The position numbers and the translations under genes were made by a program. The notes beneath the pieces are model-generated. The model saw nothing but the letters and a program-made list of their open reading frames with translations, made no database searches and was not told the origin of the DNA. Shown here one piece after another: positions 56,970-64,000 of a stretch of DNA of 64,000 nt. The stretch spans positions 496,001 to 560,000 of the forward strand of contig JAQGDQ010000040.1 of NCBI GenBank assembly GCA_030141605.1. Reading direction: 5' to 3'. Source of the DNA: Tubiluchus corallicola (taxonomy: Eukaryota > Animalia > Priapulida). Each line of letters begins with the position of its first letter. The first letter of the stretch is position 1.

Positions 56970-58534
56970 TTAAATAAAACTGTTTGGCATCTGCTTGTGA
57001 ATAAACTTTATCATTGCATCCCGTGACAGTTTAGACTCATCGTGTGGCTGATCGTCTAACAACTTCACTCCATTTTCCCACTGCCAATGCAATTGCTCTT
57101 CTAAACAATCTCTGCATATTAATAAACAAATTGTAACATTAGATCGAGTGAGTTCGTGTTCGGAAGAATTTATGTTTCACTCTTCATTTCACCCATGATA
57201 ATTATGCATGTAATGTTCTAATTTATTAGTTATCTGTAACTGTAACAGAACGTTATAAGTCACTACAATACACTAAGCAGACAGTAGGCTTGTTGCTCAA
57301 CTTGGCAAATATGATAGATAACGAAAATATTATTAAAATGTGTATTATTTTGTACTTTAGTAACAATCAACCCTAATTACTTTTTTAAATTATTTTTAAG
57401 TTATTTTTTAAATGCTGTACCTGAAAGGAAAAACACTGGCATTTAATTTTGCAAAAGAAAATTATAAAAACATGGCAAAGAAATATTTAATTGCATTTTA
57501 TAGATTTTGTATCAGTACAGAAAGTTGATTGTTATCAGTCCAACAACAAAAATAGTGAACAAGATCAAATGATCACCAACACTTTAGAACAGCACATTTC
57601 ATATCAAGCAAAAACTTATTTTTACTGCATGTGAACTGAGATATGCCTGGAGATTTTGATATTACTCTTGTAAAATATGAATTACTGAACTACGCTGAAT
57701 ATTTTTCCATAAGATTCACACAAAAATAAGTTCTTATCAGAACTTTTATTGATTTTTTTGTCTAGAAAAACCAGGCAGATAATTTATTAATTGTATGGAA
57801 AAATATTCTTTACTAGAGTATAATTCTAAAATAACAAAAGTTTTTGTTATTGTAATGGGACTAAGCTTCTAGAATGGAATTCTAGGGGGAATGCTTCTAG
57901 AGACTTTAGCAAATGTCTAAAAACGAAATCTTACACCATATCTAAATGATATATCAAAAATTAGAAATTGTGGGAAATAATTACTTGAAACTGCAAAATG
58001 ACTCTTTCGGGAAATCAAATTGCGATTCTCTTGTTTTCTTATTAAACACATATTTTCTTCTTGCACCTTTGCTCCAATGAATAGACCAAGGACCTGAATA
58101 TTTAAAAAACAAATCAATATTATAACAAGATCAAATATAAAACTATTATTCTGGCAAAACAAGTTACTCTGACTTTATTTATGCTTATTAACAAATAGTT
58201 GAAGCAAGTAAATGAATTAGCTATCGATTTTTTTTCATCTAGAGTTGATGGATATAAAAAACCTATAGAGCACCATACTTCTCCTATTGAGAAATACCTC
58301 AAAGTCAATTATTGTTATGTCAGCAATTTAATAGTATACAATGGGGAATTGCATAAGTACACTAAAGTGGTAGAAACTATTGGACATGTTACGACTCAAA
58401 ACAAAAGTATGAAAGCAGTACCTTTAACAATTTTAATGAAAGTAACACCAGTTGGATTAAAGTACCAATCCTCTTCTGTCTGATAGCATAGTCTTGGCCT
58501 GCCACCTGAACCTTTCATTGTTCTCATACTTAAC
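56970..58534 (-). CDS. CMTR1: Cap-specific mRNA 2'-O-methyltransferase 1, last three coding exons (WW-domain region)
   Basis: Exons 58422-58534, 57985-58093 and 56970-57111 with GT-AG sites and matching phases give LSMRTMKGSGGRPRLCYQTEEDWYFNPTGVTFIKIVKGPWSIHWSKGARRKYVFNKKTRESQFDFPKESFCSFKDCLEEQLHWQWENGVKLLDDQPHDESKLSRDAMIKFIHKQMPNSFI*. This is collinear with the recalled human CMTR1 C-terminus (..KGSSGTPKLSY..PWTMGFSKS..FYNKKTK..LFWEWGDG..KLSKEDVLSFI). AATAAA follows the stop. Confidence 0.85.
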
Positions 58535-59840
58535 CTTTTAAATGATAAATAAAAAACAGATAAAAGGGGAAAGTACTGATTTTTCAAATGCTGAACATCT
58601 ATTATGGTGACCAGTAAAATGGTAATAAGATGCATTGAAAGCTTAGATTCTCCAGAAATTTTCTAAAACAATGAGAATGTCGTTAAGATCTTTGGTAAAA
58701 CAATGCACTAATATCAAGACAAGATCTTTAAGAACCATGAATAAGAAAAACTCTAAGACTACTTCTCTCTGCTTACAAATAGCAAGTGCAAGCCATTATT
58801 TTGAAATGGGAGTTTTAGTGTTGCAGTAGCTTAATGTCGCTGTACTGCTGCTTTCAGTCATTAAAATGCATCACCACATCTTATACTGCTTTGAAGTTAA
58901 CCTCAAATGATCATATTTGACCGCATGCAAAAATCTGACATATGTATAATACAATGACTCACAGTTCAAAATAGAGCTAACATTACATGTGCATAGTTGT
59001 TTGGCTCCAATAAATCACCCCAACTTTAGAACTCTAGTTATTTTTACTTATTTTTGTAAAGAAAGGCCTAATCATGCCTATGAGATGTAAAAGAAAAACT
59101 TCCAGGATGTTTGTGTCTTTGTGAAGCACAAATTTGTTTTACACTTTGACAGTTTTTTGCTTCATAATAACGATATGCAAAGGAAGAAAAATTTACTGAT
59201 TTATAGAATACACCTGGCCACAGTCAAAACCTATAGTGACTGAGATGAGAATTTAATAGTCATCTCTGAGCTATATGTCGTAATTTTTTCTAAACTTACA
59301 AGAAGCGTCAGTACTTAAAGGGAAACTGCTTTGGCCATATCAGATAACAAATGTGTTAATAGCAGATGGTAAATACACGCAACTAACAGCTTTGAAATCT
59401 CTGAAGCTTTGAATCTAAAAGTCTCAGACACTCAATAAAGCAAAAACAAATATTACAACTAAAGGGACTTTAAAATAATTTGTTAAGGCTTTCTGCTCCC
59501 ACAAATTTCTTCTTGCCTTCTTAGTATTTGCAAATTCCGACATTCAAGTGTACATTTTGCATCATGCACAAGTGTACAGCTTGCATTTTACTACTCCTGT
59601 GTAATCAAAATCAAACAAGTACTAGAGTACTAGACGTCCCATTCTGAGATGAAAAAATTAAAAACAGCAATAACTCGTTAATAATACTGAAAATTTATTA
59701 ATGTTTCATATTACTGTAATTCACATTAGTGCAATTTAACTTCAGCAATTGAATCATGTTTAACAATTCGGGTGAAGGCAATTTAGAATTTTACACAGCA
59801 GGAAAACACGTCAACAGAATCAATGTTAGCATTAAAGACA

Positions 59841-62800: not shown

Positions 62801-64000
62801 TTGCTAGATCATCAAAACAAACAGCTATATCCCCAAATTTGATAATCCTAAATTTTCTTTTCATTAAAAATACCTGTACTGGATCATTGTAGTTTTCAAT
62901 GTTGCCACTCGAAGTGAAACACGTATCTGGGCCATTGAAATCCCAATAGCTGTACATCTGAAATTGCTTAGTTGCAGCATTGTAGTAACTGCCACATATA
63001 CCAGTACCTTCTCCAGCATCGACGCCAACCATATGGTTGATAACAGCATCCACATAAACTCTACCAACATAAACATGGGCAAATTAAGCAGGTGTACTGC
63101 GTAACAATTCAGTAAGTGTCACTAACAGAACTTTACATTTTGAAATATTATCTAAATTATGACTTGTTTTTCTTACAAGAAAACTTATAAAACAGCCACG
63201 TATTTGTACATTATATATATTATAATTATATGTAGGTTTACGAGTGCCAAGGCTACAAAAAATTTATCTGTAAATATTTTTTTCATTCATTTAATTTCTG
63301 CTCCTTTGCAAGCAAGCAAGCCAGCATGTAGAATGGTTACTCCCTTAATGCAATGAATCCAATTGCATTCCTTGCGCATACAGTACTTGAAGGCTAAGCT
63401 AAGCAATATTTAATGGTATTTAATTATTAATAGCAAGAAATTGATTTCCATACAGATTAACTCACAGTCATTAGCACTGCAGATCGCATAACAGTAACAG
63501 TATGTAAAATCAATAAACAAATAAAACACAAACCTAACACCAACATCATTGCACGTCTGTACCATCTGCTGAAAAGCTTTGTCATCGCCAGATCTTCCAC
63601 ACACCGTATAGCTTGCCGGCTGATAACGCTCCCACCAAGGTCGTCGAATCTTAGGGTCCCAATATGGCTCATAAACAACACGATGTTCATTGGGAGGTGA
63701 TACCTAAGTAATTGCAAAATCATCTGCAGTTCAACATCAACAATGCTGTACAAAGTCGACTTATCAATGACTACAATACTGCTTGCCATACAGTTCTACG
63801 TAAATTGAATGAACTGAATTTTCATATTAATATGAATGCTGTACTGCAAATAAAAGTATGCTTCACTATGTAATGTAAATGTAGAACGAATCGTACCTGA
63901 ACTCCTGCGTAACCCCTTGGACCCAAAAAACGCTCGCACTCTTGGGCTATATCTTCCCATTTCCATTCAAATAGATGAACGATAGTTGTGCGATCGGGAT
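59841..64000 (-). CDS. AMY: Animal alpha-amylase (GH13, chloride-dependent), 5'-partial, at least 8 exons
   Basis: Exons 63897->64000, 63534-63703, 62874-63060, 62425-62671, 61450-61693, 60921-61124, 60478-60644 and 59841-60004. Motifs [60 protein letters not shown] and YCDV. AATAAA near 59693-59698. Confidence 0.95.

What the first reader, a model, noticed from the sequence alone, without database searches (positions are those of the whole stretch)
56970..64000. Alpha-amylase appears nested on the same strand inside an intron of CMTR1
Seen: three intact terminal CMTR1 exons lie 1.3 kb downstream of the amylase stop on the same strand. The first starts at a phase-2 acceptor (58534), but I found no preceding CMTR1 exon in 58535-59840 and noticed none in the amylase introns. 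Most of CMTR1 should therefore lie beyond 64000, upstream of amylase. Known: most nested genes are antisense; same-strand nesting of a multi-exon gene is rare. Inference: CMTR1 pre-mRNA must skip at least 8 amylase exons and the amylase poly(A) site. In amylase-expressing gut cells this could truncate CMTR1 before its Pol II CTD-binding WW domain or create chimeric transcripts.
Basis: partly seen in the sequence, partly recalled or inferred. Interest (0 to 1): 0.75.

Follow-up and report, generated by a model that had tools for sequence, protein, structure and literature searches.

The report
Amylase likely inside cap-enzyme intron
An intact, intron-rich starch-digesting enzyme gene sits directly in front of the last three exons of the mRNA-cap enzyme gene CMTR1 on the same DNA strand, so it likely lies inside a CMTR1 intron, an uncommon form of a known gene-within-gene layout that remains unproven because the rest of CMTR1 and any transcript were out of reach.

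Summary
Three minus-strand exons (58534-58422, 58093-57985, 57111-56970) each hit human CMTR1 first in the PDB, in order (residues 719-831), and splice to a stop-free 120-residue C-terminus containing the WW domain. An intact 8-exon, 494-residue alpha-amylase ends 1,306 nt upstream on the same strand. I found no other CMTR1 exon in the window. A diverged public run differs in the first CMTR1 exon only at third codon positions (4 of 4 listed; 3 silent), which suggests the exon is kept by selection. Nesting itself could not be shown: no genome is held, no RNA run was listed, no full-length CMTR1 relative was retrieved, and no contig bridges the gap. Best reading (0.6): a same-strand nested amylase with at least 7 introns inside a phase-2 CMTR1 intron, tolerated by tissue-separated expression and leaky skipping. 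Rivals: orphan or broken 3' piece (0.17), misjoin (0.13), split or trans-spliced gene (0.07). Nested genes, nested amylases and same-strand nesting are all known; this would be an extreme case for intron number. Three amylase acceptors and three donors share phase 2 with the host intron, so in-frame chimeras are predicted but unseen.

The parts
63897..63998 (-). alpha-amylase coding exon, first in the window (continues beyond 64000); donor phase 0
   Evidence: splice model; aligns from residue 25 of vertebrate amylases
63534..63703 (-). amylase exon 2 in window; in phase 0, out phase 2
62874..63060 (-). amylase exon 3; in phase 2, out phase 0
62425..62671 (-). amylase exon 4; Pfam Alpha-amylase; holds the first two catalytic motifs (role recalled)
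   Evidence: run X2 contig with 5 of 7 listed differences silent
61450..61693 (-). amylase exon 5; third catalytic motif and glycine-rich loop; out phase 2
60921..61124 (-). amylase exon 6; 204 nt, phase 2 at both ends (could enter CMTR1 mRNA in frame)
60478..60644 (-). amylase exon 7; in phase 2, out phase 1
59841..60004 (-). amylase last coding exon with stop; Pfam Alpha-amylase_C
59694..59699 (-). AATAAA 142 nt after the amylase stop, followed by T-rich sequence: likely amylase poly(A) signal
   Evidence: sequence only
58535..64000 (-). inferred 3' part of the CMTR1 host intron (more than 5.4 kb, donor beyond the window)
   Evidence: inference from the phase-2 acceptor at 58534 and the absence of a nearer exon
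58422..58534 (-). CMTR1 third-last exon, human residues 719-754 (end of guanylyltransferase-like domain and linker); phase-2 acceptor
   Evidence: run X2 differences all at third codon positions
57985..58093 (-). CMTR1 second-last exon, WW domain, human residues 757-791
56970..57111 (-). CMTR1 last coding exon with stop, human residues 794-831
56964..56969 (-). AATAAA directly after the CMTR1 stop (another at 56266): candidate poly(A) signals
   Evidence: sequence only

Best explanation
An intact alpha-amylase gene with at least seven introns lies 1.3 kb in front of the last three CMTR1 exons on the same strand and is likely nested in one long phase-2 intron of a working CMTR1 gene whose other exons would lie beyond the window's end. 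SHOWN: both coding parts are intact and collinear, and no other CMTR1 exon is seen in the window. INFERRED origin: the amylase likely arrived as a DNA-level copy or move (it kept its introns, so it is not a retrocopy; a second amylase exists in the genome). INFERRED working: in most cells the amylase promoter would be off and CMTR1 pre-mRNA would join an upstream donor to 58534, passing seven amylase acceptors and the poly(A) signal at 59699; mis-spliced messages would mostly end at that signal or shift frame and be lost, a cost a low-level housekeeping gene could bear. In digestive cells the amylase would be transcribed from its own promoter, stop at 59699 and likely lower full-length CMTR1 by transcriptional interference. 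Because amylase acceptors 63060, 61124 and 60644 and donors 63534, 61450 and 60921 are phase 2, some errors are predicted to give in-frame CMTR1-amylase or amylase-WW chimeras.
For: Three intact, ordered CMTR1 exons with GT-AG ends, one open frame and a terminal stop. The first has the most pyrimidine-rich acceptor of the 10 measured (0.74) and needs an upstream phase-2 donor that is not in the window (11 recalled CMTR1 motif patterns found no convincing hit in six frames of the window). Run X2 carries this exon with 8 differences in 119 letters; the 4 listed all fall at third codon positions (P 0.012), 3 silent and 1 Glu to Asp (P 0.03-0.06 under neutrality), while its intron becomes unalignable 22 nt upstream. 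Of 20 X1 contigs laid at 80% or better, the 3 partly fitting ones lie on a short repeat-like stretch and on amylase exons, none on a CMTR1 exon, although an amylase paralogue about 80% alike was detected. No second amylase follows the CMTR1 exons in the window, which a simple tandem duplication would predict. Nested amylases have precedent (Da Lage et al. 2003, title seen in a reference list).
Against: The upstream exons and the junction were never seen. X1 covers 801 of the 1,306 nt between the two genes, with three holes and no bridging contig (one of the four covering contigs is inferred from bin depths). X1 holds only 41% of the words and has no cover on the WW exon, so not seeing a second CMTR1 copy is weak. 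Four of the 8 X2 differences were not listed. Amylase splice sites are not weak (small PWM: acceptors 6.7-14.6, against 4.7 for 58534, which was left out of training), and no pairing that would loop the amylase out is seen inside the window (longest complement 11 nt, reached by 95 of 100 shuffles), so how the exons are skipped is unexplained. In X2 the 30 visible intron letters hold an Arg-preserving donor-like site 47 nt before the acceptor (chance 0.03, noticed after the fact), which would fit an uninterrupted CMTR1 in that lineage. Same-strand multi-intron guests are selected against in flies (PMC3814207).
Confidence: 0.6

Rival explanations
1. The three exons are an orphan: a recent partial duplicate of CMTR1, or the 3' half left by a rearrangement that broke the gene, while the working CMTR1 lies elsewhere. 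They would not be translated, except by occasional read-through from the amylase.
For: No 5' exon is visible. Mobile elements are active nearby: a full-length LTR element with LTRs 99.3% alike and multi-copy sequence at about 55000-56670, just downstream. A recent duplicate would still look intact and would still differ from X2 mostly at silent sites.
Against: All three exons, both introns' ends and the stop are intact. No diverged second CMTR1 copy among 20 X1 contigs, and X1 depths on the CMTR1 side (5.2, 6, 9.7) match those on the amylase side (5.2-9.7), though the tool warns that depth is not copy number. No second amylase downstream in the window.
Confidence: 0.17
2. The assembly joins two unrelated places, or a rare haplotype, somewhere between 58604 and 59684, so amylase and CMTR1 are not neighbours and CMTR1 is an ordinary gene.
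For: No contig of either run bridges the gap; 505 of 1,306 nt are uncovered. The donor-like site in X2 47 nt upstream of the acceptor hints at a contiguous gene in that lineage.
Against: The window has no N. The listed X1 contigs in the gap fit end to end at 99% or better with no loose ends; the only loose ends there belong to one 36-nt partial match. Gap GC (0.32) is like the rest of the non-coding DNA. All 9 introns measured here are 193 nt or longer, so a 47-nt intron is unlikely, and the window's own frame at that spot is not CMTR1-like. X1 may be the source of the assembly and so not independent.
Confidence: 0.13
3. CMTR1 is split: the three exons are expressed on their own from a promoter in the 1.3-kb gap as a short WW protein (in-frame ATGs at 58527 and 58518), or are joined in trans to a 5' half made elsewhere.
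For: In-frame ATGs lie in the first exon; the exons hold a compact WW-containing unit; this would remove the need to skip the amylase.
Against: Similarity to human CMTR1 begins at the acceptor itself, before the first ATG, and the break falls inside the guanylyltransferase-like domain (560-729 in human). No evidence of a promoter or of trans-splicing was obtained.
Confidence: 0.07

Closest known systems
Nested alpha-amylase gene of Drosophila ananassae (Da Lage et al. 2003, J Mol Evol 57:355; title seen in the reference list of PMC13343718; paper not read)
   Same: A duplicated alpha-amylase gene placed inside an intron of an unrelated gene.
   Different: Different lineage and host gene; by my recall the fly copy is antisense to its host and intron-poor, whereas this one is sense with at least 7 introns; nesting is proven there and inferred here.
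Same-strand nested genes of D. melanogaster (PMC3814207, passages; PMC5174743, passages)
   Same: Tissue-specific guest inside a broadly expressed host on the same strand, with a risk of mis-splicing.
   Different: Fly same-strand guests are 72.53% single-exon and otherwise have a median of one intron; this guest has at least seven, and the host is a core mRNA-capping enzyme.
Host/nested pairs with premature host polyadenylation or exonisation in mammals (PMC3192792, abstract and section 6; PMC11694760, passages)
   Same: Gives the mechanism expected here: guest transcription causing intron retention, exonisation or early polyadenylation of the host.
   Different: There the truncation is seen in transcripts; here no transcript was available.
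Human CMTR1 (PDB 8p4e chain O; domain map in 10.1101/113209, passages)
   Same: Three exons match residues 719-831 in order, including the WW domain.
   Different: Only the last 120 residues are in the window; methyltransferase and G-patch domains unseen.
Animal-type alpha-amylase GH13_15/24 (PMC3096672, passages; PMC7003070, one passage)
   Same: About 60% identity to vertebrate amylases over 494 residues, Pfam PF00128 and PF02806 matches, catalytic motifs aligned.
   Different: Best relative among 120 listed hits is 67% on exon 5, so no close annotated relative; subfamily 15 versus 24 not tested.

Membership tests
Nested (intronic) gene | Host exons downstream of the guest | tested here: met
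   three CMTR1 exons
Nested (intronic) gene | Host exons upstream of the guest on the same chromosome | not testable with these tools
   window ends at 64000; no genome held
Nested (intronic) gene | Host mRNA splices across the whole guest | not testable with these tools
   no RNA holder listed; the two runs laid show no joint into 58534
Nested (intronic) gene | No host exon interleaved among guest exons or in the gap | tested here: inconclusive
   none found, but without a CMTR1 profile; amylase introns judged by eye only
Nested (intronic) gene | Guest is an independent intact gene with its own stop and poly(A) signal | tested here: met
   promoter and start codon lie outside the window
CMTR1 (cap1 2'-O-methyltransferase) | C-terminal WW domain after the guanylyltransferase-like domain | tested here: met
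CMTR1 (cap1 2'-O-methyltransferase) | G-patch and RrmJ-type methyltransferase domains in the same protein | not testable with these tools
   not in the window; no relative retrieved
Animal-type alpha-amylase (GH13_15/24) | Full-length similarity with catalytic Asp, Glu, Asp motifs and C-terminal beta domain | tested here: met
   alignment to P0092, 60% over 495 columns; Pfam; residue roles recalled
Retrocopy nested in an intron | Loss of the parent's introns | tested here: not met
   seven GT-AG introns retained
Decayed pseudogene fragment | Stops, frameshifts, lost splice sites or neutral divergence | tested here: not met
   a very recent duplicate is not excluded

The most novel reading that the evidence does not exclude
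The nesting is real, old and used: in amylase-making gut cells the amylase poly(A) site and phase-2 splice sites switch CMTR1 from the full Pol II-bound enzyme to a WW-less or CMTR1-amylase fusion form (and give an amylase-WW product), tying cap1 methylation to digestive cell state. It would also be a natural test of how a spliceosome skips seven strong, same-strand exons of another gene.
Probability: 0.08. Interest if true: 0.65.

Novelty: new member of a known kind. Interest (0 to 1): 0.33.

Why it matters
If the nesting is confirmed, it sits at the far end of what same-strand nesting is reported to tolerate: a guest with at least seven introns and a poly(A) signal inside a core capping gene, where fly data point to selection against exactly this. 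It would give a clean case for asking how host splicing ignores a whole spliced gene on its own strand, and whether a highly expressed gut gene trims the CTD-binding end of CMTR1. If it is not confirmed, it is an orphan fragment or assembly error of no wider interest. The layout itself, and nested amylases, are already known kinds.

Tried and rejected
Whole genome: none held. RNA: no RNA holder listed; X2, guessed as RNA, reads through the 58534 acceptor into intron-like sequence and shows no spliced CMTR1 joint, so it gives no transcript evidence. Full-length CMTR1 relatives: last exon against longer proteins, 0 of 2 candidates scored; against 1.84 billion representatives, 0 hits; alignment of the three exons, 0 of 17 candidates; ESM Atlas, only unrelated low-recognition clusters; metagenome scan, 1 of 202 stretches passed and it is a 15-residue chance match inside a bacterial-type ORF (L001). 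So synteny in relatives could not be tested. Two single-exon proteins of the window are not in the 15-billion collection. Idea that a decayed or intact upstream exon sits at 58662-58577 behind a 42-nt intron: rejected (-1.0 bit; GC 0.28). Idea that X2's upstream letters are homologous to the window's intron beyond 58556: not significant (149 of 2000 shuffles). Loop-out RNA pairing inside the window: chance level. Rfam: 0 matches in the window. Literature: no listing naming CMTR1 with a nested amylase among the 15 of 22 shown for CMTR1/amylase/nested gene, nor in the searches priapulid+amylase (7 of 7) and priapulid/genome assembly/nested genes (10 of 188); subscription papers are not covered and no supplements were opened. 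Earlier scan notes: nothing near this place, on CMTR1, or on look-alike stretches. (bacterial promoter scan of 20 bases) was uninformative.

Full report
What is in the sequence. The window is animal nuclear DNA, about 33% GC, without N. On the minus strand an alpha-amylase runs from beyond 64000 to a stop at 59843-59841. One GT-AG splice model gives an open frame: eight exons, 494 residues, introns of 193, 473, 202, 731, 325, 276 and 473 nt in phases 0, 2, 0, 1, 2, 2, 1. It aligns at about 60% over its whole length with vertebrate amylases, starting near their residue 24, and keeps the catalytic motifs (roles recalled). An AATAAA with a T-rich tail lies at 59699. After 1,306 nt come three exons, 58534-58422, 58093-57985 and 57111-56970, which join to a 120-residue open frame ending in a stop. 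Searched separately against the PDB, each gives human CMTR1 as best hit, at residues 719-754, 757-791 and 794-831. In human CMTR1 the guanylyltransferase-like domain is 560-729 and the WW domain 755-790, the latter needed for binding Ser5-phosphorylated Pol II CTD (10.1101/113209, passages).

Is the rest of CMTR1 in the window? I found none. Of ten minus-strand open frames of 30 or more codons in the gap, seven were searched; six gave no PDB hit at E<=10, where the true exons of like length scored E 0.02 or better, and the frame that runs into the first exon added four residues and a -1.0-bit stretch. A phase-2 exon scan of 58590-63998 returned 108 candidates; the 70 I read were amylase exons or short unremarkable peptides. 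Eleven recalled CMTR1 motif patterns gave only weak scattered matches in six frames. These tests lack a real CMTR1 profile, because four protein searches and one DNA scan retrieved no relative. The spliced amylase and the CMTR1 tail each match the window once.

Are the exons alive? Two public runs were available, both as contigs. X2 is diverged: all its laid contigs are under 95% alike. Its contig on the first CMTR1 exon has 8 differences in 119 letters; the four listed are all third-position, three silent and one Glu to Asp (P 0.012 for position, 0.03-0.06 for silence), and 22 nt upstream of the acceptor it becomes unlike the window. That is what purifying selection on an exon looks like, on few sites, and a very recent duplicate would look the same. 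X1 matches the window closely (16 of 20 contigs at 99% or more). At an 80% threshold it revealed a second amylase, also present in X2, that runs through the position of intron 6 without an intron, but no second CMTR1 copy; its cover of the CMTR1 exons is thin, so this is weak.

Is the join real? X1 contigs cover 801 of the 1,306 gap bases in four pieces, one inferred from bin depths, with no loose ends at their ends but no bridge. X1 may be the assembly's own source. A misjoin is neither indicated nor excluded. One observation points the other way: the 30 visible upstream letters of X2 hold a donor-like site 47 nt before the acceptor that would keep the split Arg codon (chance 0.03, post hoc). 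If real, CMTR1 is uninterrupted in that lineage and the amylase arrived later or the window is misjoined; but all nine introns measured here are 193 nt or more.

How it most likely works. The simplest account of intact terminal exons with a phase-2 acceptor and no partner nearby is that the partner lies beyond 64000, which places the amylase in a CMTR1 intron (0.6). The amylase kept its introns, so it likely moved or was copied as DNA. CMTR1 pre-mRNA would have to pass seven amylase acceptors and a poly(A) signal. Nothing in the window explains the skipping: amylase splice sites score as well as or better than the 58534 acceptor on a nine-site matrix, and the longest complement between gap and amylase body is at chance level (repeats). 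I therefore expect tolerance rather than a dedicated device: separate expression (broad, low CMTR1; gut-restricted amylase, both assumed from other animals), some leaky inclusion, and loss of faulty messages. Three amylase acceptors and three donors are phase 2, and exon 6 is phase 2 at both ends, so part of the leak is predicted to be in frame. None of this was observed.

Comparison with what is known. In D. melanogaster 71.27% of nested genes are antisense; same-strand guests are 72.53% single-exon and otherwise have a median of one intron, read as selection against mis-splicing (PMC3814207, passages; same pattern in PMC5174743, passages). In mammals the orientations are broadly similar in number and guests can cause premature host polyadenylation (PMC11694760, passages; PMC3192792, abstract and section 6). 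A ctenophore has 2,357 nested genes, many parallel (PMC8527503, passages). A nested amylase is on record in D. ananassae (title only), and an unchecked note of this scan reports an antisense one in a sea urchin. Amylase gene structure varies strongly between copies in invertebrates (PMC3096672, passages), which fits the two differently built copies seen here. Unchecked notes on other pieces of this genome call the animal priapulid-like and report another same-strand nested gene, an intronless one; I did not test either.

Verdict. Observation confirmed; nesting likely but unproven; mechanism inferred. New member of a known kind, unusual in the guest's intron number and the host's housekeeping role. 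Interest 0.33. One tBLASTn on the neighbouring sequence and one RNA-seq junction count would settle it.

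Noticed in passing
window 60919-60968, 60537-60562, 61483-61520 (partial matches of runs X1 and X2): A second alpha-amylase about 80% alike exists in both runs; its contigs pass the position of this gene's intron 6 without an intron, so the two copies differ in structure.
   Followed up: partly
window 5317-13780: Full-length, recently inserted LTR retrotransposon: 1,183-nt LTRs 99.3% alike, TG...CA ends, 5-nt target duplication, one 1,628-codon frame with SCAN-like, zinc knuckle, protease, integrase, then RT and RNase H (integrase before RT); minus strand, next to exons of an ankyrin-HECT gene on the same strand and probably in one of its introns.
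   Followed up: partly
window about 14800-26000, minus strand: Multi-exon ankyrin plus HECT ligase gene (HACE1-like by recall); not modelled in full.
   Followed up: no
window 35028-36242, minus strand: Single-exon 404-codon frame with a C-terminal RRM (POLDIP3/SKAR-like by recall); intronless, possibly a retrogene.
   Followed up: no
window 39750-40775, minus strand: Single-exon rhodopsin-family GPCR.
   Followed up: no
window 44829 to about 52430, plus strand: IQ-motif gene with a long first coding exon and further exons near 46111 and 52229, convergent with CMTR1.
   Followed up: no
window 27082-29692, minus strand: Broken non-LTR (LINE-type) element with endonuclease-like and RT pieces.
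   Followed up: no
window about 54000-56670: Multi-copy repeat sequence just downstream of the CMTR1 stop (X1 depth 30 to about 1,000 against 5-10 elsewhere).
   Followed up: no
window 15423-15632 and 30286-30621: Tandem repeats with units of about 70 and 167 nt.
   Followed up: no
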